From IMG/VR virus record IMGVR_UViG_3300027754_003435: 64,000 nucleotides of DNA; one strand, written 5' to 3'. The notes below the pieces were generated by a model. The model saw nothing but the letters and a program-made list of their open reading frames with translations, was not told the origin of the DNA and did no database searches. This stretch comes from a virus. The translations under genes and the position numbers were made by a program. This document shows positions 377 through 14,891 of the stretch, in pieces (position 1 is the stretch's first letter; every line of letters starts with the position of its first letter).

Positions 377-1530
377 CCAATTTTCTCCCATTCTAAATCT
401 TTATTTCCAAAATGACCATACTTGGCAGTCTGTAAATAAATAGGAGTTTTTAATTTTAATCTTTCAATGATTCTACTTGGAGTTAAATCAGCGTGAGTAA
501 ATTTACCAAGTCCATATTCTTTGCCAGTTGTTGGATCAAATATACGATATGAAACAGGAAACTCTTCACCGATTGCATATGCTAATTGAACTTTAATTTT
601 ATTTGCTTCTTCATTTTCATGAAGTGTTGTTATAGCGATATGACGAGCCATATACGCTGCACTTCTATCAACTTTACTTGGGTCTTTGCCAGAGAAAGCA
701 CCACCACCAATTTCACAATCAGCACCGTATTGATCAACTACAATCTTTCTACCTGTTAGTCCACAATCAGAAACTGGACCACCAACATTCCATTCACCTG
801 CTGGATTTATATGGTAAACAGTTTTATCTGTAAATAGTTCCGCAAGTTCTTCTGGAATACTTTCTAATACCGTTGGTAAAATATCAGAATGGAAATACTT
901 TCTAAGTTGTTCAAGTGAAATCATTTCAGAATGACAAGTTGAAAATACAACAGAATGAATATCTACTGCTTTATTATCTTTATACGTAACAGACACTTGA
1001 CTCTTCATATCGGGACGAAGTTTCTGTACATGACCTAATTTACTACCTTTTTTTCTAATATCTGTTGCAACTTCAATTAGTTTTTTAGCCAAGTAAATTG
1101 CTATCGGCATATATGTTGGAGTTTCACGAGTAGCATAACCAAACATAATACCTTGGTCTCCTGCTGTAACAACATCACCTTTATCAACCGCTCGGTTAAT
1201 CTCTGATGATTGAGTTGATATATTAAAGTGAATACGGCAATACTCTGAATTGAAGAATGGTGATTCTTCTTTTGTATAGCCAATGTCTTTTATAAGTCCT
1301 TTAATTAATCTAGTTAGTGATAATTCTAAAGTTCTTTTATCTTTATCAACCGTTGATTTTATTTCACCAGAAACATAAACATCACTATCCTTTACCATAA
1401 CTTCACACGCAACCTTTGCGTCTGGATCTCTTTGTAAATACCAATCAAGAATTGCATCTGAAATTTGGTCAGCTATTTTATCAGGATGACCTTCACTTAC
1501 ATATTCTGAAGTCCATATATATGTACTCAT
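373..1530 (-). CDS. metK: S-adenosylmethionine synthetase
   Basis: Motifs SEYVSEGHPDKIADQISD, GDQGIMFGYA, GLTGRKIVVDQYG, GGGAFSGKDPSKVDRSAAY, YGHFG. Start placed at 1530 (MSTYIW), TAATG-coupled to the upstream gene. Confidence 0.97.
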   Translation of the reverse strand: MSTYIWTSEYVSEGHPDKIADQISDAILDWYLQRDPDAKVACEVMVKDSDVYVSGEIKSTVDKDKRTLELSLTRLIKGLIKDIGYTKEESPFFNSEYCRIHFNISTQSSEINRAVDKGDVVTAGDQGIMFGYATRETPTYMPIAIYLAKKLIEVATDIRKKGSKLGHVQKLRPDMKSQVSVTYKDNKAVDIHSVVFSTCHSEMISLEQLRKYFHSDILPTVLESIPEELAELFTDKTVYHINPAGEWNVGGPVSDCGLTGRKIVVDQYGADCEIGGGAFSGKDPSKVDRSAAYMARHIAITTLHENEEANKIKVQLAYAIGEEFPVSYRIFDPTTGKEYGLGKFTHADLTPSRIIERLKLKTPIYLQTAKYGHFGNKDLEWEKIG

Positions 1531-1913
1531 TATTTCCCCCATTTACCAGATTGAACAAGTTGTGCGATAATTCCATAAACAGAAATATCTTTGAATGTGT
1601 CATATAAGGATTCACCAACTGCATCTTGTGAACCAAACATAATCATTTGTTTGTAACGATTTATTTTATCGTTAATACGAAAGAATAAACCTTGTAAAGA
1701 AAGTTTTCTGTCTTCCTCTCTTTCTAATGTTGTACCCATTGATATATTATCTGGACCATAGTTTTTTTGTTTTGCACAGAATAGTTCGTACTGTTCTTGT
1801 TGAATACGTTTAAATTCTTTAGTCATAGTAGGAAACTTTTCTTCCATTTCAGAAACAACACCAATTTGTTTTCTACCTAAGTCTATTTCTTTAATTGACA
1901 TTTTATTCCTCAT
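1530..1913 (-). CDS. DUF1599 / nucleotide-modification-associated domain 1 protein
   Basis: Pattern K-x-K-x-YG ... RINDKINR ... ESLYDTFKDISVYGII matches my recollection of this all-helical family. Confidence 0.7.
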   Translation of the reverse strand: MRNKMSIKEIDLGRKQIGVVSEMEEKFPTMTKEFKRIQQEQYELFCAKQKNYGPDNISMGTTLEREEDRKLSLQGLFFRINDKINRYKQMIMFGSQDAVGESLYDTFKDISVYGIIAQLVQSGKWGK

Positions 1914-3656: not shown

Positions 3657-5312
3657 TTACGAAATATAAAAATTTGCCCACGGCTTACGAAATATAAAAA
3701 TAGGTTCTTGTTTCCACCATTGACCTTTATGAAAAACTTTATTAGAAGTTCTTTCTGCTAATTTTTCTTGGTCAGAGTTTCCAATCATTCTACCCATCGC
3801 CATTCCAAATTTACCTACATACTCCATTCCCAATGATTCTAATATATCAATTGAATCTTTTTCAAGGTGAACTATTTTGTTAGTTGAAATTCTAATATCA
3901 GCTATATTCCAACAAAGGTAACGGTCTGATTTCAAATAAGTAACCGCAGTTTCTAATGTTGGGCGTAAAAAGTTATCACGCCAATCCGCATACTCACTAT
4001 GTGCTTTATACGATTGAGTTACATCATCGGAATACATTTCTCTGTTAAAGTATGGTGGTGAAGTAAAAACAAAATCTAACTTACCTTTATACTTTTGAAA
4101 TTTAGGATTGAATTGAATTGTTTCTGAACCATCTTGAAAAAGTTCGTATGTATGATTTTCATTTGTAACAAAGAAGTTTGAAGATACATTTGTGCCTCGC
4201 TCGCCTATTGATTTTAGAAAAAAGTCTGCAAGGTATTCATAACGACTTATTTCTAATTCATCAATAAAGTTATCTGTATTTGGGTCTGTTCCAACATAAT
4301 GCATTGGGCGACCAACAGACATAGCACCGAGTATCCTTCCACCCCAACCAGAACTTGGATCATATACCGTTACTGTTTCACTTGCAGGTATATGTTTTGT
4401 AAAGTGTTCATAAAGAAACTTTGCGGTCATAGGTGGAAAGTTTACAGCCGGTTGACAAAATGACATACGAAATACTTGTATTGCACTTGGAAATAGTTTT
4501 ATATTCTTTTCGTAAACACGAACAATATAAACATTTGCCCTCGGTTCAGAACCTTCTTTTTGTATATTAAATGTATCAGTTAAATCCGCTGGACTACCCA
4601 AAGTAAATAACATGAAGTCATCAATCAAACCTTCTGCTAAGAACTGTCTAATCTCATCTACCTTTATAGTTAAATACTTTTTGTATTTTTTACTTTGAGT
4701 TTGTAGAGTGCATGATATTTTAGAAATACGAACACCTTGTCCATCGAATCTTCCATCACCATTTTTATACGCCATGAAGAAATCACGAAGAGTTTCACCT
4801 TCTTTGAAGTAAGGATTCTTTACTTGATTTGAAGATAAAGACTTGCTGTACAAATACATAGAATCGTTGTAAACACTTCTCTTCATAATATGATGAAATG
4901 TTTCTTTCATAGAGTCTGTAAAATAATCGTAAATCGATTTACCAGAATCACTTCCCATGCCAGATGCAATTTTAGTTTTTAGCATTGTTGGAAAGAATTG
5001 ATTTGCAGCAGAACCAATTTTTGTGAAATTAGCAATGACTCCAATCATATCAGAGTCATTGCCGTCTTCCACACTATGAAAAATAGATGAAGCGTTGAAC
5101 TGACGGAGTTTCGAGAATGATTGATTAATCTCTTCCTCAGTTCTACCAACGACTGGTGGTTTCCCATTGTTATCCCAATCAGTTAGAATCCTCATTCGTA
5201 AATCTTCTGCCCATTCATAAAACCTGTTATCGTCAAATGTAACCAGTTCACCATACGTTATGTTTGATGGCCAGGACAGAATATCACTTTTTTCATAGAA
5301 ATACTTTTTCAT
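3657..5312 (-). CDS. SAM-dependent amino-type DNA methyltransferase (SPPY), long form
   Basis: Motif I VYDPSSGWGGR followed by motif IV FVFTSPPYF; C-terminal WKQEPIFIFRK. Confidence 0.75.
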   Translation of the reverse strand: MKKYFYEKSDILSWPSNITYGELVTFDDNRFYEWAEDLRMRILTDWDNNGKPPVVGRTEEEINQSFSKLRQFNASSIFHSVEDGNDSDMIGVIANFTKIGSAANQFFPTMLKTKIASGMGSDSGKSIYDYFTDSMKETFHHIMKRSVYNDSMYLYSKSLSSNQVKNPYFKEGETLRDFFMAYKNGDGRFDGQGVRISKISCTLQTQSKKYKKYLTIKVDEIRQFLAEGLIDDFMLFTLGSPADLTDTFNIQKEGSEPRANVYIVRVYEKNIKLFPSAIQVFRMSFCQPAVNFPPMTAKFLYEHFTKHIPASETVTVYDPSSGWGGRILGAMSVGRPMHYVGTDPNTDNFIDELEISRYEYLADFFLKSIGERGTNVSSNFFVTNENHTYELFQDGSETIQFNPKFQKYKGKLDFVFTSPPYFNREMYSDDVTQSYKAHSEYADWRDNFLRPTLETAVTYLKSDRYLCWNIADIRISTNKIVHLEKDSIDILESLGMEYVGKFGMAMGRMIGNSDQEKLAERTSNKVFHKGQWWKQEPIFIFRKPWANFYIS

Positions 5313-8597: not shown

Positions 8598-9758
8598 TTA
8601 TGCCTTTTTGAATACCCACATTGGTTCTGCAAATTTTGCTTTATCATCACAATCTATGCCAGTATCGTTCGGCCGTACTGCCATTTCCATACCCATCGTT
8701 CCTTCATATATACAATCAGATTTTTCTTTCATGTATTCTACCATAGGTTCACATATTTTCAAATACGACTTTGCTGGTCTATTATAAATGTCTGCAATAT
8801 TTACAATCATTGTACCACCGGATTTAAGAGTAGCCCATACATTATCCAACGCCTTATGTAAAAAGTTTTTGTTCCAAGAATCTATATTCTTGTACCGAAC
8901 CCAACTTTGTTTATCATCGTTTGAATATCGTTCTGTATCAAAGTAAGGAGGCGATGTAAATATTAAATCAACTTTACCTATCCACTCTGAATTATCCCAA
9001 TCTTCTGCGGGTGCTTCGTATAAATGTACTGATTTTTTCGTATCAAACCAACCTAATTGTTTAGAATAAAATTCAGATTGTTGTTTATAAACTTCATGAT
9101 TATTTGGTGCTGGATCTATTCCAATATATGTTTCTGCTTTATCCGATGCATAGAAACCACATAATCTATCACCCCAACCTGCTGAGAAATCCAATATTGT
9201 TTTAGCACCATACATATCGTATAATGCTTTTGCAACATTTGGTTTGAATTGAGAACAAACATATTTTCTAAGACTTAGTGAAGAACGAACCGCTGCTTTA
9301 TCAATCTTTTTAAATTTCAATGTATAGAACGCTTTCGATAAAGAAATCATAGAACGAAGAGAAATCCAACTTCTTACTGGACCAGGTGAGTATGCAGCAT
9401 CAACTTTCCAACGGTTTATTTGTTGAAAATAATTTGATGCAGAGTTACCTACATTACTTCTTGAAAAGTATAACGGTTTTCCGTTCCATTCAAAATCTAA
9501 ATTATAACTGTGTCTAGCTTTCCACTTACCTTCTTTCAGCATTTCTTTCCACTTAATCGCCTTCAACTTTTGAAACTCAGAAGTTGTATCTTCAATTGTA
9601 ATATCAGCATAAGGCAATGGGTATGTCATCGCTATTTCAGCGAGACGGTCTTTGACATATTCTTTATCAAATGTTTCTTGAATATACTTCCATTCTATTT
9701 CATCAATCGCAAGGTAAGGACTCATTCCTTTGAACTTGTCAAAGTAATCTAAATACAT
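8598..9758 (-). CDS. SAM-dependent amino-type DNA methyltransferase (SPPY), short form
   Basis: SQFKP, ILDFSAGWGDRL, LIFTSPPYF, EPMWVFKK; clear paralog of 3657..5312. Confidence 0.75.
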   Translation of the reverse strand: MYLDYFDKFKGMSPYLAIDEIEWKYIQETFDKEYVKDRLAEIAMTYPLPYADITIEDTTSEFQKLKAIKWKEMLKEGKWKARHSYNLDFEWNGKPLYFSRSNVGNSASNYFQQINRWKVDAAYSPGPVRSWISLRSMISLSKAFYTLKFKKIDKAAVRSSLSLRKYVCSQFKPNVAKALYDMYGAKTILDFSAGWGDRLCGFYASDKAETYIGIDPAPNNHEVYKQQSEFYSKQLGWFDTKKSVHLYEAPAEDWDNSEWIGKVDLIFTSPPYFDTERYSNDDKQSWVRYKNIDSWNKNFLHKALDNVWATLKSGGTMIVNIADIYNRPAKSYLKICEPMVEYMKEKSDCIYEGTMGMEMAVRPNDTGIDCDDKAKFAEPMWVFKKA

Positions 9759-10382: not shown

Positions 10383-11012
10383 TTAAATTTCTATATCTTT
10401 CCAATTTTTATTTGCAATAGTTTTCATTGCCCACTTACCCATGTTGTTTGCAACACTATAATAGTTATGGTTTCCAATTTGTTCAAGCAAGTCAGATTCA
10501 AATATAAAAGGTCTGCCTTTTACTTTTGTCATGAATTGCCCACCTTTGCCCATTTGTCTATCATTGAATTGCATTGTTCTTCCATATCCTGGATAATCTG
10601 AACACTGGTTTGTACCGATTAGAATAGAACCATCACCACCCCTTGGTATAAGCAAAATAGAATCTTGCATATACTCTTCACCCAATCTTCTTAAATCTGC
10701 TTCAAGTTTTCCTTTATCTTGTAAATCAACAACAAAGAAAACATCTTCACGTACTTCAATTGCTTCAGGTGTTCCGTAGTTTTCAATGTAAGCACCTTTA
10801 ACTGCTGTTGTTCCATACCCCATCATTTCAAGTTTTGCTTTTAATTGCGCATTTCTTTTTTTGTTATCCTGTAATGCGTAGGGTAAATCTTCAGGTAAAC
10901 CACACCCTTCTTTAGAGCGGAAGGCTGTAATTGTACCGCAATCGTGCATTTCCATGTGGTAAACCAATCTCGATAAACCACTTTCTTTTAATATGTTACT
11001 TAGTTTTGACAT
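10383..11012 (-). CDS. Conserved large-phage protein with KLxxILxE leader
   Basis: SGLSRL..H...CGTITAFR and Y.QDSIL motifs; preceded by the late-type motif. Confidence 0.65.
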   Translation of the reverse strand: MSKLSNILKESGLSRLVYHMEMHDCGTITAFRSKEGCGLPEDLPYALQDNKKRNAQLKAKLEMMGYGTTAVKGAYIENYGTPEAIEVREDVFFVVDLQDKGKLEADLRRLGEEYMQDSILLIPRGGDGSILIGTNQCSDYPGYGRTMQFNDRQMGKGGQFMTKVKGRPFIFESDLLEQIGNHNYYSVANNMGKWAMKTIANKNWKDIEI

Positions 11013-11059: not shown

Positions 11060-11566
11060 TTATTGTTTATCCGTTGAACCAAACCCACCTTGGCCACGGT
11101 TTGTATCGGATAGTTTCTCTACTTCTACGAATTTTACTCTTGGATACGGAATAATAACCAATTGTGCAACTCTATCGCCAACAACTGGAATAGTTCCTTC
11201 TACCGCTCCTGAATAAGGCAATTCAAATCTCACAAGGATTTCACCACGATAATTTGAATCTATAACTCCAACTGAATTTTTCAATGAAACTCCGGCTGCT
11301 GCTTTTGTGATTGAACTTCTTGGAAATAAAAGTCCAACATGATTCGCTGGAATCTGTACCGCAATACCAGTTCCAAATTCCATAAAAGTATCTGTAACTC
11401 TAAATGAAGTCGCTGTTAAATCCATACCAGCATCACCGTCTTGTGAGTATTCTGGTTTAACTGCGTCTGGACTTAACTTTACATACGTAATAGGTAAATT
11501 TAATCTGTTCTTAAATGATTCCTCAGCCAAACTCTCATCCCATCTTCTTTGCCACGTCTGTACCAT
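11060..11566 (-). CDS. dut: Trimeric dUTPase
   Basis: DAGMDL, PRSS, GVIDSNYRGEI, RVAQL, RGQGGFGST. Start placed at 11566, 8 nt after AAGGAG. Confidence 0.95.
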   Translation of the reverse strand: MVQTWQRRWDESLAEESFKNRLNLPITYVKLSPDAVKPEYSQDGDAGMDLTATSFRVTDTFMEFGTGIAVQIPANHVGLLFPRSSITKAAAGVSLKNSVGVIDSNYRGEILVRFELPYSGAVEGTIPVVGDRVAQLVIIPYPRVKFVEVEKLSDTNRGQGGFGSTDKQ

Positions 11567-11588
11567 TTTCATAACTCCTTTATTTATA

Positions 11589-12428
11589 TTAAATCGATTG
11601 TAAATATGAACCGCCAATATTCCAAAATAATACTTTTCCGTCTAATTTCCCAATGTTTTCTTCTAACCAGAACCACATTTTTTTATCCCAAAACTCATTA
11701 CAATCAAACGGTACTGAATAATCCAACATCATATCGTCAAAAGCAAATGGCGATTTATAAATGTGAATATTATTATTACCACCTGCTCCATTTTGTTCTA
11801 ATATTTTTCTTGTTGATTTTATCGATGACATTGTAATACCATGAACTTGCCTTCTGTTACTAACAACATCTCGCCAATCTGTATAATGTAAGAATGAATT
11901 TATAAGTCCAGAACACGTTACACCACTACCCATAGAAACAACTAAGTGGTCAAAGTCATTATCCGCCAATACTTCTTTCATTCTACTACCCATGTATGCA
12001 ATATACATTGGATGATTGAATGCGTATGGTAACATTTGCCATCCATTCTCTGCTGCTTGTTTCTTTACACGATTGTTTAGTATCGCCATTATGTTTGGTT
12101 TAAGTGGATTTAATTTTCCACCGTTACCCAATACTTTTTCAATTAAGTTTGGAGGAAACTTCTTTGTTTCCGGATAAGAAGAAATAAATTCTATGCCTTC
12201 TTCTTTACAAAGTCCAGATAGAACCCAACCTGTCCAACTTCCGTATACTGAAAGGTGTGTTAGTGGTTTGCTTTTATCAACAGCAGGACTTCTTAGAATT
12301 TGTTTAATTCCTTCTATCTTTGCCCACCTTGGATAATTTATTCCATCACCAACTAAATCATCACGCTTAACCCAAACTTTCTTTCCTTTGAGTTCGTATT
12401 CTTCAATCGGTGTTTGTATTAAATCCAT
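11589..12428 (-). CDS. Fold-type-II PLP-dependent enzyme (ACC deaminase / D-cysteine desulfhydrase-like, divergent)
   Basis: TPIE..WVKRDD, putative Schiff-base Lys in RWAK, phosphate loop SMGSGVT, C-terminal VLFWNIGG. Confidence 0.75.
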   Translation of the reverse strand: MDLIQTPIEEYELKGKKVWVKRDDLVGDGINYPRWAKIEGIKQILRSPAVDKSKPLTHLSVYGSWTGWVLSGLCKEEGIEFISSYPETKKFPPNLIEKVLGNGGKLNPLKPNIMAILNNRVKKQAAENGWQMLPYAFNHPMYIAYMGSRMKEVLADNDFDHLVVSMGSGVTCSGLINSFLHYTDWRDVVSNRRQVHGITMSSIKSTRKILEQNGAGGNNNIHIYKSPFAFDDMMLDYSVPFDCNEFWDKKMWFWLEENIGKLDGKVLFWNIGGSYLQSI

Positions 12429-13924
12429 TTGAATATTCCACTATTATTACCAATAAGTTCGCCCTTCATTTTCTTATGTGAGAATCCATGAATCTTTTCA
12501 AAGTTATCACCAATTACATGAAGCATCTTTTTTCTATTACGAAAGTTTATTTCTTTATCATTTAGAATTATATCTTCAATATATCCTTTGAAGTTTGTAC
12601 CTTTTTGAAAAGCACGTTTCTCTTGTTCAATAACTTCTTTAGGCAAGTACGGTCTGAATGCATCTGCGAGTGGAAGTTTCCATTGAGATTTATCAGATAA
12701 AAATTCGTTCGTTAAGTTAGTAGTGTAATCTAAAAAATCAATATCGAAAAACGGGCAACGTAATTCTATTGTTCCATAATACATGAAAACAGTATTACCG
12801 CGTAATAAATTACCATAGTATTGCTTTTCAAATAATTTCTTTCTAATATCCGACCAGTCTGGCTTCTTACTAAACATCCGTATCATTCCATAAGAACCAT
12901 ACGCTTCATCAGATCCTTCACCACTAAACGCAACTTTTATTCCATCCTTTGCCATCTGTTCCGCTATAAACGATTGTAGAATACCAACTTGCATTTGAAC
13001 TGTAGATGGATATTCAATAACTCGTATTGATTCTAAAAATCTTTGCTTCAAGAGTTCCACGTTTCTTGGAACTAAAACTTCAACCAATTGAACACCTAAA
13101 TGTTTTGCAACTATTCTTGCGTATTTCAAGTCAGGTGAATCTTCATCAAAAGCAATTGTATACGCTTTTAAGTTTGGTATTTTAGTAGATAATAAATACG
13201 TTATAACAGCGGAATCAATCCCACCAGACAACGAAGTTGCAATAGGTACATCAGATAACAATCTTTTACTTACCGCGTTCTCCAGTAGATTGTACGTTGT
13301 TGTACTGCATTCTTCATGTGTTTCGGGTGAAGTTGTTTCGTTTGAAAAGTTAAAATAGTAATCTTTATGAACTATTATTTTATCGGTACTCAGATCAATT
13401 TCAATCAAAGAATTTTTCGGTACAAACTTAATGTCAGCGTTCGGTAATTGTTTAACAATAGATTTTATTTCACTTGCAATAATGTAAGTGTTATTGTTAA
13501 AAATATAGAGTGGTAACTTACCAACCCAATCACGTGAAAGAATTAGCTTTCCGTTATCCCAAATAACAAAAGAAAACATACCGTTAAGTCTTTTCAATTC
13601 TTGTTCTTTGTACACAAACAGTATAAGTTCTGAATCTGAATTTGATTTAAACTTATATCCCCTTTCTTCGTATTCTTTTCTTAGTTCAGGATAATTCCAT
13701 ATTTCGCCATTAACTACTAAGTGAATACCTTTCCATTCCATCGGTTGATTGCCTGCGGCAGAAGTATCGTTAATGGCAAGGCGATTATGTCCAAGTATAA
13801 CTTTTCTATCGCCCCAAGAAAATTCTTTTATACCACGGTTATCTTTACCACGGTGAGCGATGGTTTCCAACATATTATCAACATCAGTTTTAGTATAACC
13901 GACGGTTGCTATTATACCGCACAT
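12419..13924 (-). CDS. Asparagine-synthetase-B-like glutamine amidotransferase / ATP-dependent amide ligase
   Basis: Ntn Cys2 (MCGI), HNRLAI, NGEIWN, RDWVGKLPLY, PP-loop SLSGGIDS, SGEGSDE, ELRCPFFD. Confidence 0.9.
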   Translation of the reverse strand: MCGIIATVGYTKTDVDNMLETIAHRGKDNRGIKEFSWGDRKVILGHNRLAINDTSAAGNQPMEWKGIHLVVNGEIWNYPELRKEYEERGYKFKSNSDSELILFVYKEQELKRLNGMFSFVIWDNGKLILSRDWVGKLPLYIFNNNTYIIASEIKSIVKQLPNADIKFVPKNSLIEIDLSTDKIIVHKDYYFNFSNETTSPETHEECSTTTYNLLENAVSKRLLSDVPIATSLSGGIDSAVITYLLSTKIPNLKAYTIAFDEDSPDLKYARIVAKHLGVQLVEVLVPRNVELLKQRFLESIRVIEYPSTVQMQVGILQSFIAEQMAKDGIKVAFSGEGSDEAYGSYGMIRMFSKKPDWSDIRKKLFEKQYYGNLLRGNTVFMYYGTIELRCPFFDIDFLDYTTNLTNEFLSDKSQWKLPLADAFRPYLPKEVIEQEKRAFQKGTNFKGYIEDIILNDKEINFRNRKKMLHVIGDNFEKIHGFSHKKMKGELIGNNSGIFKWI

Positions 13925-13925
13925 A

Positions 13926-14624
13926 TTATTTATTGAGTATGGTTAATAATTCTTTAGTTTTTTTAAGTTCATTGTTCATCTTACCGATGTGGCAGGAACA
14001 CGCTAATACACTAACCTTTCCTAATTCTAAATCACTTTCTTTTGCTAAAAACTTACCCATACTAACTAAAGCAGAATAATCAGCGTAACCACTCTTAGAA
14101 ACTCTATTGGAACGTAGAACAGAAGTTAAATACAACTTACCATTCCGTGGCTTCAAGTCAATCATTAACATACAAGGTTGAGAATACGGATTGCGTGAAT
14201 CACGTGATGGGTCAAATATAATTAACTCACAACGTTTAACTGCTTTACCTTGTTTCAAAATCTTAATAACGTTTTCAACTTGATTAAACGTACCTTGCCA
14301 ACTAATCATTCTTCCCCAATAGGACTGATGCCAATGATCTTTAATGAACTGGTATTCCAATCCTTCTTCTACTTGAAAGAAATCGTTAATTGGTTTTTTA
14401 GGTTTAGGTTCTACGAAAGTAACCGAAGAAGCAAAATCAATTCTATCATCACCCATTATTTCTCTGAAGTGTGAATCAAACCAATCATCACTTTCAAATT
14501 GAGTAATTTCCATCATTACATTTAATTCTTCAATTAATTCACCGACTTTTTCCCCTTTTTCTAACAAATGCTTAGAAACTTTTACCCAAGCGTCACCGGG
14601 AGATACCGCTTCTATAACTGTCAT
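13926..14624 (-). CDS. Thymidylate-synthase-fold pyrimidine C5 transferase (dCMP-hydroxymethylase-like, atypical)
   Basis: YWGRM, catalytic PC (SQPCML), RSNRVSKSGYADY with Asp at the specificity position, SCHIG in place of the HxY motif. Confidence 0.75.
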   Translation of the reverse strand: MTVIEAVSPGDAWVKVSKHLLEKGEKVGELIEELNVMMEITQFESDDWFDSHFREIMGDDRIDFASSVTFVEPKPKKPINDFFQVEEGLEYQFIKDHWHQSYWGRMISWQGTFNQVENVIKILKQGKAVKRCELIIFDPSRDSRNPYSQPCMLMIDLKPRNGKLYLTSVLRSNRVSKSGYADYSALVSMGKFLAKESDLELGKVSVLACSCHIGKMNNELKKTKELLTILNK

Positions 14625-14633
14625 ATATCACCA

Positions 14634-14891
14634 TTATAAATTTTCAATTGCAATTTCGTAATTTCTTTTAGAAACTAAACCAGTAATTCTGTTTACTTCA
14701 ACACCGTTTTTCATAAATATTACAGTAGGAACTCCACGAACACCATGCATCGATGCTTCATCTGGATTATTGTCCACATCAATAAGTTTATAATTGACAT
14801 TTGGACGTTTAAGTAAGATTTCACTCATAATGGGTTTAAGTTGTTTACATGGCATACACCAAGAGGCTGTGTAATGTTTAATGGTAATCAT
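14634..14891 (-). CDS. Thioredoxin
   Basis: WCMPC, VRGVPT; 85 aa. Confidence 0.93.
   Translation of the reverse strand: MITIKHYTASWCMPCKQLKPIMSEILLKRPNVNYKLIDVDNNPDEASMHGVRGVPTVIFMKNGVEVNRITGLVSKRNYEIAIENL

What the first reader, a model, noticed from the sequence alone, without database searches (positions are those of the whole stretch)
13926..14624. TS-fold enzyme has a cytosine-type specificity Asp and has lost two canonical residues
Seen: RSNRVSKSGYADY aligns position-for-position with E. coli ThyA RSCDVFLGLPFNI and T4 gp42 RSNDVVFGFRNDY (reference motifs recalled from memory). Position 12 is Asp as in dCMP hydroxymethylase, not the Asn of dUMP enzymes. The normally conserved RSxD Asp is Arg, and the sugar-binding HxY is H-I-G. 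The catalytic PC is intact. Inference: dCMP-like substrate and possibly a non-folate, anionic C5 donor (Arg could bind a carboxylate made by the neighbouring PLP enzyme), or an altered sugar or polymer substrate.
Basis: partly seen in the sequence, partly recalled or inferred. Interest (0 to 1): 0.78.

Follow-up and report, generated by a model that had tools for sequence, protein, structure and literature searches.

The report
Rewired phage thymidylate-synthase-like cytosine modifier
An uncultured 177-kb aquatic phage that already has a normal thymidylate synthase (ThyX) also carries a remodelled thymidylate-synthase-fold enzyme, built for cytosine and lacking the usual folate contact, in a virus-only gene module that most likely makes a DNA cytosine modification nobody has described chemically.

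Summary
ORF 13926-14624 (-) is a compact, confidently modelled TS fold (pLDDT 90.5; Z 20 to AfhB and MilA). It keeps Pro-Cys (C151 = E. coli C146) and R171/S172. It has Asp at the base-specificity position (D182 = N177), Arg at the folate-binding Asp (R174 = D169) and Gly at the 3'-OH Tyr (G214 = Y209).

The protein belongs to a monophyletic, almost entirely viral family:
- D182, C151, K177 and H212 are invariant.
- Position 174 is Arg (10 of 14 representatives) or Ala (4 of 14), never Asp.
- The Tyr position is free to vary.

The phage has a separate ThyX, so this enzyme is not its dTMP synthase. In 47 of 48 well-flanked relatives it sits next to two other genes:
- an Asn-synthetase-like amide ligase, homologous to S-B43 CmoY, which amidates 5-carboxymethylcytosine in DNA;
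- an SPPY methyltransferase-like gene.

44 of 48 also have a PLP enzyme homologous to phage M6 gp52, a decarboxylase of amino-acid-modified bases in DNA.

Best reading (0.55): it is the first enzyme of an undescribed cytosine C5 hypermodification pathway, acts on dCMP, and does not use folate in the canonical way. The donor and the product are unknown.

The scan has already met this module in several other genomes, and those notes reached the same conclusions.

The parts
13926..14624 (-). TS-fold enzyme, 232 aa: the finding. Signature: PC (C151), RS-N-R (R171, S172, R174), SKSGYADY (K177, D182), H-I-G (H212, G214). The N-terminal half carries the family hallmark FRxI[FM]G[DE][DE]RID.
   Evidence: Pfam PF00303 scores 26.7 bits (cut-off 24.3) over residues 98-226 only. 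TIGR03283 scores 72.8 bits, below its cut-off of 174.55. AF2 pLDDT is 90.5. VIA gives Z 20.4 to AfhB, 20.0 to MilA and about 18 to ThyA. Residue map.
12419..13924 (-). AsnB-like glutamine-dependent amidotransferase, 501 aa. It has the N-terminal Cys2 of a class-II GATase and the SGGIDS PP-loop. Its start codon lies 1 nt after the TS-like stop codon.
   Evidence: Pfam Asn_synthase 146 bits, GATase_7 113 bits. TIGR01536 scores 291.6 bits but matches residues 2-353 only. Residues 213-473 align with S-B43 CmoY over CmoY's whole length (23% identity, E 6e-9). 53% identical to the orthologue in L003, where the TS-like genes are only 34% identical.
11589..12428 (-). Fold-type-II PLP enzyme, 279 aa. 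Homologue of phage M6 gp52. The predicted Schiff-base Lys is kept (K37 = gp52 K36). It overlaps the AsnB-like gene by 10 nt.
   Evidence: The best phage hit is M6 YP_001294560. Pairwise BLASTP gives 29% identity over residues 6-272 versus 6-277, E 7e-27. gp52's function comes from PMC8989533.
8598..9758 (-). SPPY methyltransferase-like protein, 386 aa. Motif I reads DFSAGWGDR and motif IV reads SPPYF. Together with its paralogue family it is, with the ligase, the most constant neighbour of the TS-like gene.
   Evidence: Pfam N6_N4_Mtase 29.9 bits. Orthologues lie next to the TS-like gene in L003 (37% identity), L005 (34%) and L002 (27%). Invariant motifs in A4. AF2 pLDDT 89.6. The highest-identity matches (18-20%) in a flat top tier at Z about 15, shared with O-methyltransferases, are the exocyclic-amine MTases Trm11, TrmN and METTL5.
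3657..5312 (-). Second SPPY methyltransferase-like paralogue, 551 aa, between the clamp and clamp-loader genes. In the relatives at about 48% identity, this type lies directly upstream of the TS-like gene.
   Evidence: Pfam N6_N4_Mtase 27.3 bits. tblastn positions.
14634..14891 (-). Thioredoxin. Backbone gene directly upstream, not module core.
   Evidence: Pfam 57 bits. Present at the same place in Mel-JY01, which lacks the module.
11060..11617 (-). dUTPase. A neighbour only in the closest relatives, not module core.
   Evidence: Pfam 60.5 bits. Found within 6 kb of the TS-like gene in 3 of 80 loci.
10383..11012 (-). SAM-lyase-family-like protein, 209 aa. A neighbour only in the closest relatives, not module core.
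   Evidence: PF23780 42 bits, cut-off 28. Found in 2 of 80 loci.

Best explanation
The protein is the entry enzyme of an undescribed phage pathway that hypermodifies cytosine at C5.

Inferred mechanism. It acts like every known TS-fold enzyme. It is presumably a dimer. Cys151 adds to C6 of a cytosine mononucleotide, most likely dCMP, and the activated C5 attacks an electrophile. The electrophile is not methylene-tetrahydrofolate bound in the canonical way. It is probably a donor that leaves a carboxyl-bearing or amino-acid-like substituent.

Downstream steps. After phosphorylation and incorporation by the phage polymerase, the side chain is finished on DNA by three kinds of enzyme:
- the AsnB/CmoY-like ligase, which would form an amide from Gln-derived ammonia;
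- the gp52-like PLP enzyme, which would decarboxylate or otherwise act on the alpha-carbon of an amino-acid moiety;
- the SPPY methyltransferase-like proteins, which would N-methylate.

What is shown: the fold, the retained nucleophile and phosphate/ribose contacts, the cytosine-type Asp, the loss of the folate Asp, the separate ThyX, the conserved module, and the homology of the neighbours to enzymes that act on modified bases in DNA.

What is inferred: the substrate (dCMP), the non-folate donor, the order of steps and the product.
For: 1. Fold and catalytic core. AF2 pLDDT is 90.5, with Z 20.4 / 20.0 to AfhB and MilA. P150-C151, R171, S172, Y102 and H212 are conserved.

2. Cytosine type. D182 is invariant at the N177 position. 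The rule is documented in PMC13326640, PMC8670742 and PMC5175136.

3. Deoxyribose type. S172 is invariant and corresponds to TS S167, which is Ala in the CMP-preferring MilA.

4. Not the dTMP synthase. The genome has a ThyX at 158 bits.

5. Non-canonical cofactor. D169 is R or A in the whole clade, and the sister clade also lacks it. The precedent is the D169N enzymes, which use flavin.

6. Conserved module. Of 48 loci with at least 4 kb on both sides, 47 have an Asn-synthetase-like gene, 47 an SPPY MTase-like gene and 44 the PLP enzyme. All but one of those without it have a B12-type radical SAM enzyme. TS-like identity across these loci runs from 100% down to 34%. One relative fuses the TS-like domain to the radical SAM domain (P0127).

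7. Translational coupling. The TS-like, AsnB-like and PLP genes are separated by a 1-nt gap and a 10-nt overlap.

8. The module is an insertion. The closest isolate is Microcystis phage Mel-JY01 (PolB 62% identical). Its thioredoxin is followed by only two small ORFs before PolB. None of the module genes gave a tblastn hit in it.

9. The neighbours' characterised homologues act on DNA-borne side chains. These are M6 gp52 and S-B43 CmoY.

10. Virus-only. Only 1 of 185,579 species genomes has a relative, and that is on a MAG contig carrying the same module.
Against: - No experiment exists for any member, and the product is unknown.
- The genome shows no T4-gp1-type dNMP kinase, no MazG-type dCTPase and no dCMP deaminase. 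The helper enzymes of the classical pre-replicative route were therefore not found. Host enzymes could serve.
- The AsnB-like protein passes the broad TIGR01536 asparagine-synthase cut-off, so a metabolic role cannot be formally excluded.
- Amidation and decarboxylation both need a carboxylate. A single simple side chain does not obviously satisfy both enzymes.
- R174 is not invariant.
- The N-terminal half, where the catalytic Glu58 and the folate contacts lie in ThyA, could not be aligned reliably. Residual folate use is therefore not excluded.
- The 80 loci are not phylogenetically independent.
Confidence: 0.55

Rival explanations
1. It is a flavin-dependent dCMP 5-hydroxylase (5-hydroxy-dCMP synthase) like HY126 AfhB, RB69 gp48 and DLP3 gp80. 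The 5-OH group would then be decorated by the neighbouring enzymes.
For: AfhB is the best structural match (Z 20.4, rmsd 2.6 over 196 residues). The two share small size, loss of the D169 Asp, Asp at N177 and loss of the Y209 Tyr. Flavin chemistry in this fold is documented in PMC13326640.
Against: The published diagnostic residues are not met. Position 169 is R/A rather than N, and position 143 is S/G/R/K/L rather than E. The family is a separate clade far from RB69 gp48. No glycosyltransferase or sugar-activation genes lie in the module. Instead there is a carboxylate-dependent ligase, which a 5-OH group does not feed.
Confidence: 0.15
2. It is still a folate-dependent dCMP hydroxymethylase or methylase of the T4 gp42 / MilA type with a drifted folate pocket. 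The neighbours would elaborate 5-hydroxymethylcytosine or 5-methylcytosine.
For: Pfam and PHROG call it a thymidylate synthase. MilA is a top sequence and structure hit. The closest curated model is the methanogen-type TS, which uses a different pterin, showing that the pocket is adaptable.
Against: D169 is Asp in the three folate-dependent references aligned here (ThyA, T4 gp42, MilA) and in most of the nearest superfamily relatives, but it is replaced in this whole clade. The acidic residue at the L143 position typical of hydroxymethylases is absent. The module has no kinase or amino-acid:DNA transferase of the kind that activates a hydroxymethyl group in the M6/ViI pathways.
Confidence: 0.12
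3. It works on a different class of substrate. One possibility is a cytosine already in DNA (flipped out). Another is a ribonucleotide or nucleoside feeding a small-molecule product, as MilA does.
For: Several mononucleotide contacts are weakened. Y209 is lost, R126 is Lys, and R127 and the R21 region vary. No phage dNMP kinase or dCTPase was found. All characterised homologues of the neighbours act on DNA.
Against: Every characterised TS-fold enzyme named in this report uses a mononucleotide. R171, S172 and K130 are invariant, as expected for a 5'-phosphate site. S172 argues against ribose. AfhB lacks the Tyr too and uses dCMP. The placement beside the replisome genes argues against a secondary metabolite.
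Confidence: 0.1

Closest known systems
Flavin-dependent 5-hydroxy-dCMP synthases: HY126 AfhB (PDB 9iqu, 9iqc), RB69 gp48, DLP3 gp80 (PMC13326640)
   Same: Compact TS fold of about 235 aa. Cys nucleophile kept. Asp at the N177 position. The folate-binding D169 is lost, and so is the Y209 Tyr. Best structural match (Z 20.4). Each is the first step of a phage cytosine hypermodification.
   Different: Position 169 is Arg or Ala here, not the diagnostic Asn. Position 143 is Ser/Gly/Arg/Lys/Leu, not Glu. The family is a separate clade. Its neighbours are an amide ligase, a PLP enzyme and SPPY MTases, not arabinose or hexose activation genes and glycosyltransferases.
T4 gp42 dCMP hydroxymethylase and Streptomyces MilA CMP hydroxymethylase
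   Same: Same fold, Cys nucleophile, RS motif and Asp at the specificity position. Lys at the R126 position, as in MilA. MilA is the best sequence hit in the PDB (E 4.8e-8 with the family profile).
   Different: Both keep D169, the HxY Tyr and an acidic residue at the L143 position, and both use CH2-THF. This family has none of these three residues. It keeps Ser167, unlike MilA's Ala.
CmoA/CmoX/CmoY pathway of Synechococcus phage S-B43 (5-carboxymethylcytosine and its glycine amide; PMC12783734)
   Same: An Asn-synthetase-type ATP-dependent ligase stands next to the enzyme that functionalises cytosine C5. The short ligase in relative L005 is 31% identical to CmoY over its full length. A Gln-amidase-bearing ligase class was predicted there to use ammonia, and the window's protein is of that kind.
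   Different: No CmoA and no C5-methyltransferase-fold CmoX occur in this genome or in any of 80 related loci. A TS-fold enzyme occupies that role, so the carboxyl handle, if there is one, must be made by other chemistry and probably at the nucleotide level.
Thymidine hypermodification pathways of Pseudomonas phage M6 and Salmonella phage ViI (PMC5889632, PMC8989533)
   Same: A TS homologue starts the pathway. A gp52-type fold-II PLP enzyme (29% identical, colinear, Schiff-base Lys kept) finishes an amino-acid-derived side chain on DNA. Radical SAM enzymes appear in variants.
   Different: The TS homologue is cytosine-type here, not a dUMP hydroxymethylase. There is no 5-HMUDK kinase, no aGPT-Pplase amino-acid:DNA transferase and no gp53-type radical SAM isomerase. 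The radical SAM enzymes here are of the B12-binding methylase type.

Membership tests
Canonical thymidylate synthase ThyA (dUMP + CH2-THF -> dTMP) | TS alpha/beta fold | tested here: met
   AF2 pLDDT 90.5. Z about 18, rmsd about 2.9 over about 198 residues to many ThyA structures.
Canonical thymidylate synthase ThyA (dUMP + CH2-THF -> dTMP) | Catalytic Cys in the Pro-Cys motif (C146) | tested here: met
   P150-C151, invariant in the family.
Canonical thymidylate synthase ThyA (dUMP + CH2-THF -> dTMP) | Asn177, which selects uracil | tested here: not met
   D182, invariant Asp.
Canonical thymidylate synthase ThyA (dUMP + CH2-THF -> dTMP) | Asp169 of RSxD (pterin contact) | tested here: not met
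   R174. The family has R (10) or A (4), never D.
Canonical thymidylate synthase ThyA (dUMP + CH2-THF -> dTMP) | His207 and Tyr209, which hold the 3'-OH | tested here: not met
   H212 is kept and invariant. Tyr is replaced by G214 and the position varies freely in the family.
Canonical thymidylate synthase ThyA (dUMP + CH2-THF -> dTMP) | Curated family score | tested here: inconclusive
   Pfam scores 26.7 against a cut-off of 24.3 and covers only half of the protein. The NCBIfam TS equivalogs are far below their cut-offs: 72.8 against 174.55 and 16.6 against 327.
Canonical thymidylate synthase ThyA (dUMP + CH2-THF -> dTMP) | Supplies the genome's dTMP | tested here: not met
   A separate ThyX at 158 bits lies at G000:C1:133737-134294. 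The functional test, thyA complementation, cannot be done with these tools.
Folate-dependent cytosine hydroxymethylases (T4 gp42, MilA) | Asp at the N177 position | tested here: met
   D182 corresponds to T4 D179 and aligns with MilA's Asp in the HMMER alignment.
Folate-dependent cytosine hydroxymethylases (T4 gp42, MilA) | Retained D169-equivalent, and an acidic residue at the L143 position | tested here: not met
   R174 and S148. The signature is described in PMC13326640.
Flavin-dependent 5-hydroxy-dCMP synthases (AfhB / RB69 gp48) | D169N diagnostic residue | tested here: not met
   R174, with R or A across the family. RB69 gp48 has N186 in the same column.
Flavin-dependent 5-hydroxy-dCMP synthases (AfhB / RB69 gp48) | Glu at the L143 position | tested here: not met
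   S148. RB69 gp48 has E160.
Flavin-dependent 5-hydroxy-dCMP synthases (AfhB / RB69 gp48) | Flavin binding and O2-dependent hydroxylation | not testable with these tools
   Needs purified protein. The structural paper on AfhB is not in the searchable library.
Flavin-dependent 5-hydroxy-dCMP synthases (AfhB / RB69 gp48) | Genomic link to sugar activation genes and DNA glycosyltransferases | tested here: not met
   The module neighbours are a ligase, a PLP enzyme and MTases.
CmoA/CmoX/CmoY 5-carboxymethylcytosine system | CmoY-type Asn-synthetase-like ligase | tested here: met
   Window protein against SpCmoY: 23% identity, E 6e-9, over the whole of CmoY. The L005 orthologue-position protein: 31% identity, E 2e-34.
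CmoA/CmoX/CmoY 5-carboxymethylcytosine system | CmoA Cx-SAM synthase and CmoX C5-carboxymethyltransferase | tested here: not met
   No TIGR00740 or PF00145 match in the genome. No tblastn hit to SpCmoA or SpCmoX in 80 loci.
M6/ViI thymidine hypermodification system | gp52-type PLP enzyme | tested here: met
   29% identity, colinear, K37 = K36.
M6/ViI thymidine hypermodification system | 5-HMUDK kinase, aGPT-Pplase transferase and a dUMP-type TS homologue | tested here: not met
   No tblastn hit to M6 gp51, gp53 or gp54 in 80 loci. The TS homologue is Asp-type.

The most novel reading that the evidence does not exclude
The TS fold has been recruited a third time to a new co-substrate, after folate and flavin. 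Cys-activated C5 of dCMP would attack a carboxylate-bearing carbon electrophile, for example a 2-oxo- or aldehyde-acid, or a SAM-derived group. The donor would be held by the family-specific basic residues K177, R174, R54, R61 and R105. This would install in one step the handle that S-B43 makes with CmoA plus CmoX, and that M6 makes with a hydroxymethylase, kinase, transferase and isomerase. The handle would then be amidated, decarboxylated and N-methylated on DNA, giving a new natural DNA base that is widespread in aquatic phages.
Probability: 0.3. Interest if true: 0.9.

Novelty: new variant of a known kind. Interest (0 to 1): 0.72.

Why it matters
TS-fold enzymes are the gateway to most known pyrimidine hypermodifications of phage DNA. 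Until 2025 all of them were thought to be folate enzymes. The flavin-dependent 5-hydroxy-dCMP synthases showed that losing Asp169 marks a change of chemistry.

This family loses the same Asp in a different way, by replacing it with Arg or Ala. It is virus-only and abundant: hundreds of 90%-identity clusters from marine and other metagenomes, on genomes of 170-375 kb. It is locked to homologues of enzymes from two other, separately discovered pathways (CmoY and gp52).

Working out its product would probably add a new natural DNA base and a new co-substrate class for a textbook enzyme fold. It would also give a sequence signature, RS-x-[RA]-x-SK-[SA]-GY-[AG]-D, for predicting modified genomes. 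That matters for restriction and CRISPR evasion, for sequencing bias in viromes, and for enzyme tools.

Tried and rejected
- Megablast of the 6.8-kb block against isolate phages found nothing.
- hhalign against a 3-sequence template shifted the helix-J register by two compensating gaps. I rejected it in favour of the ungapped HMMER and 119-sequence alignments and the model's helix start.
- Full-text searches for thymidylate synthase together with asparagine synthase or synthetase, phage and DNA modification returned nothing.
- The PDB codes 9IQU and 9IQC, and 'AfhB', are not in the paper library.
- PMC12801897, a cyanophage paper, was irrelevant.
- Searches of the phage's own genome found no radical SAM, dCMP deaminase, MazG, T4 gp1 kinase, CmoA or C5-MTase.
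- tblastn of the AsnB-like protein and of a short ligase against isolate phages did not retrieve S-B43. Homology to CmoY showed only in direct pairwise comparison.
- The SPPY MTase-like model matched generic class-I methyltransferases. The highest-identity matches in that flat top tier were the Trm11, TrmN and METTL5 exocyclic-amine MTases, and no specific function followed.
- The ESM Atlas returned only 'thymidylate synthase' clusters.
- A homodimer prediction was requested three times, but the machine could not be reached, so there is no result.
- Thioredoxin, dUTPase and the SAM-lyase-like gene were considered as module members and rejected. Thioredoxin is present in Mel-JY01, which lacks the module. 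The other two occur only in the closest relatives.
- No model coordinates were available to scripts. Residue-level superposition on AfhB, ThyA or gp42 could therefore not be done, and neither could a pocket map of the family-specific residues.
Full report
**Setting**

The window is bases 11483-75482 of a 177,312-bp IMG/VR virus record judged complete. It has about 32% G+C and all genes lie on the minus strand. It carries PolB, clamp and clamp loader, gp32-like, RecA/UvsX-like, a DnaB-like helicase, a class-II RNR and MetK genes. By PolB the closest isolate is Microcystis phage Mel-JY01, at 62% identity.

**The observation**

ORF 13926-14624 (-) encodes 232 aa.
- Pfam sees thymidylate synthase only marginally: 26.7 bits against a cut-off of 24.3, over residues 98-226.
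- The best curated model is the methanogen-type TS, at 72.8 bits and far below its cut-off.
- An AF2 model built on 17 family members is confident, with pLDDT 90.5. The whole protein is one TS fold.
- VIA-align gives Z 20.4 to HY126 AfhB (9iqu; rmsd 2.6 over 196 residues), 20.1 to 9iqc, 20.0 to MilA (5b6e) and about 18 to many ThyAs.

I fetched E. coli ThyA, T4 gp42 and RB69 gp48 from annotated records.

The stretch is aligned without gaps in two independent ways: by HMMER alignments of the family profile to MilA and AfhB, and by a 119-sequence MAFFT alignment of the nearest superfamily members. The resulting map is:
- Y102 = Y94
- K130/R131 = R126/R127
- S148 = L143
- P150-C151 = P145-C146
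- M152 = H147
- R171/S172 = R166/S167
- R174 = D169
- D182 = N177
- H212 = H207
- G214 = Y209

One hhalign run shifted the register by two compensating gaps. The model's helix begins at K177, which fits the ungapped alignment.

**The family**

- A scan of 1.84 billion cluster representatives found 13 at E <= 1e-30.
- The word-indexed search found more than 200 clusters at 90% identity, from JGI, ENA, Logan and Tara data, on contigs of up to 288 kb.
- In a FastTree of 119 superfamily members, the 14 representatives form one clade with support 1.0. Its sister group also lacks D169. RB69 gp48, T4 gp42 and ThyA are distant.
- Within the family, C151, R171, S172, K130, K177, G179, Y180, D182, H212 and E219 are invariant.
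- Position 174 is Arg in 10 representatives and Ala in 4. Position 214 (the Tyr site) is G/A/R/H/K/S/F. Position 148 is mostly Gly or Ser.
- Only one of 185,579 prokaryotic species genomes has a relative. It lies on a 44-kb MAG contig that carries the same module. The family is in effect viral.

**What the residues say**

- Base. Asp at the N177 position is the established determinant for cytosine over uracil. See PMC13326640, PMC8670742 with its citations of the 1992 mutagenesis papers, and PMC5175136.
- Sugar. MilA prefers ribose because TS Ser167 is Ala and Arg126' is Lys. This family keeps the Ser (S172) and has the Lys (K130). The Ser argues for deoxyribose. By analogy with MilA, the Lys may take over the 3'-OH contact of the missing Tyr, but that is inference.
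- Lost Tyr. This is not diagnostic of a new sugar. RB69 gp48 reads H-V-F in A3, AfhB reads H-V-F in the HMMER alignment, and the 9iqu/9iqc structures hold dCMP.
- Cofactor. Losing D169 is the striking change. Lee et al. 2026 showed that TS homologues with D169N (plus N177D and L143E) are flavin-dependent 5-hydroxy-dCMP synthases, and they use D169N as a predictive signature. Here the Asp is replaced by Arg or Ala and position 143 is not acidic. The enzyme therefore fits none of the ThyA, gp42/MilA or AfhB signatures.
- N-terminal half. In ThyA this half holds Glu58 and the folate contacts. Here it is replaced by a family-specific conserved block, FRxI[FM]G[DE][DE]RID, with conserved R54, R61 and D63, which I could not align reliably.

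**Genomic context**

The phage has a bona fide ThyX (158 bits), so the TS-like gene is not needed for dTMP.

The TS-like, AsnB-like and PLP genes are translationally coupled, with a 1-nt gap and a 10-nt overlap.

In Mel-JY01 thioredoxin is followed by two small ORFs and then PolB. None of the module genes gave a hit in it. The module is therefore an accessory insertion.

I fetched 76 IMG/VR loci plus four others, with TS-like identity from 100% down to 34%, and mapped reference proteins onto them. Among the 48 loci with at least 4 kb on both sides:

| Neighbour within 6 kb | Loci (of 48) |
|---|---|
| Asn-synthetase-like gene | 47 |
| SPPY MTase-like gene | 47 |
| PLP enzyme | 44 |
| B12-type radical SAM enzyme | 4 |
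| CmoA, CmoX, M6 gp51 / gp53 / gp54 or T4 gp1 homologue | 0 |

- The Asn-synthetase-like gene usually lies directly downstream. It is either a full GATase-AsnB form or a synthetase-only form of about 290 aa.
- In all but one of the loci lacking the PLP enzyme, a B12-type radical SAM enzyme is present (PhpK / BchE-like).
- One relative fuses the TS-like domain to that radical SAM domain (P0127).
- The loci are not independent samples, but they span several genome backbones.

**The neighbours**

- PLP enzyme. It is colinear with phage M6 gp52 (29% identity, E 7e-27), and the predicted Schiff-base Lys is kept. gp52 decarboxylates C-alpha-glycinylthymine in DNA (PMC8989533).
- AsnB-like protein. 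It has an intact N-terminal Cys and PP-loop. Its synthetase domain aligns with all of S-B43 CmoY (E 6e-9). The short ligase of relative L005 is 31% identical to CmoY (E 2e-34). CmoY adenylates the carboxyl of 5-carboxymethylcytosine in DNA and adds glycine. A Gln-amidase-bearing class was predicted to add ammonia (PMC12783734).
- SPPY proteins. They have intact SAM and (S)PPY motifs. They have the class-I methyltransferase fold, and among the tied top matches the most sequence-similar are exocyclic-amine methyltransferases such as Trm11, TrmN and METTL5.

**Interpretation**

The module joins homologues from two separately discovered pathways to a third kind of entry enzyme, and it lacks the entry enzymes of both. 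The ligase needs a carboxylate and is present in 47 of the 48 well-flanked loci. The simplest reading is therefore that the TS-like enzyme installs a carboxyl-bearing, possibly amino-acid-like, substituent on C5 of dCMP, and that the group is then amidated, trimmed and methylated on DNA.

The details do not hold:
- R174 is dispensable, because four family representatives have Ala there.
- The PLP enzyme looks like a downstream tailoring enzyme, and it is absent from some variants.

Three weaknesses remain:
- No dNMP kinase, dCTPase or dCMP deaminase was found.
- Amidation and decarboxylation compete for a carboxylate unless the side chain has two.
- Nothing has been tested experimentally.

I put 0.55 on the general reading, 0.15 on an AfhB-like hydroxylase, 0.12 on residual folate chemistry and 0.10 on a non-mononucleotide substrate.

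**Prior notes of this scan**

Look-ups show that the same TS-like family and module were flagged in at least six other genomes. Follow-up agents reached the same verdict. One of those notes gave me the lead to the S-B43 paper, which I then checked myself. I found no publication describing this family or module in the searchable library.

Noticed in passing
G000:C1:133737-134294 (outside the window; locus L011): A bona fide flavin-dependent thymidylate synthase ThyX (PF02511, 158 bits) is encoded elsewhere in the same phage genome.
   Followed up: partly
L002:7088-9118: A natural fusion of the TS-like domain to a B12-binding-type radical SAM domain (P0127, 676 aa). It is flanked by a synthetase-only Asn-synthase homologue, a weak ATP-grasp-like protein and an SPPY MTase-like gene.
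   Followed up: partly
proteins P0163, P0167, P0176, P0187, P0202, P0204, P0211, P0222, P0233, P0235, P0236: The sister clade consists of TS-like proteins that also lack Asp169, with Y/H/F/R/L/K/T at that position. Most have Asn at the specificity position and no His207. This is another uncharacterised TS-fold lineage.
   Followed up: no
window 10383-11012 and 373-1542: The phage encodes both a SAM synthetase (MetK, 404 bits) and a protein matching the SAM-lyase family (PF23780, 42 bits). This pairing is odd. The SAM-lyase-like gene occurs only in the closest relatives.
   Followed up: partly
L003:6766-7944 and 8825-9361: In one distant relative, an IS605 OrfB/TnpB-type gene sits between the MTase-like and TS-like genes. 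A DUF723 / PvuRts1I-like (homing-endonuclease-like) ORF sits between the TS-like and AsnB-like genes. The RecA gene nearby carries intein-like segments.
   Followed up: no
L005:1044-4259: Three tandem paralogues (a fourth cut at the locus end) matching the ADP-ribosyltransferase family PF03496 lie a few kb upstream of the module in a phage contig.
   Followed up: no
L096 (CAIOZA010000025.1, binned as an Ignavibacteria MAG): This is the only hit in 185,579 species genomes. It is a 44-kb contig carrying the MTase-like gene, the TS-like gene, a short Asn-synthase homologue and a B12-type radical SAM gene in a row. It is probably a phage contig placed in a bacterial bin.
   Followed up: partly
window 11060-11617: The dUTPase ORF, as listed from its first TTG, overlaps the PLP gene by 29 nt and has an N-terminal extension of about 50 aa without a family match. 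The true start is probably further downstream.
   Followed up: no
window 1530-1913: A small ORF next to MetK matches DUF1599, 'nucleotide modification associated domain 1', but below the cut-off (20.8 bits against 25).
   Followed up: no
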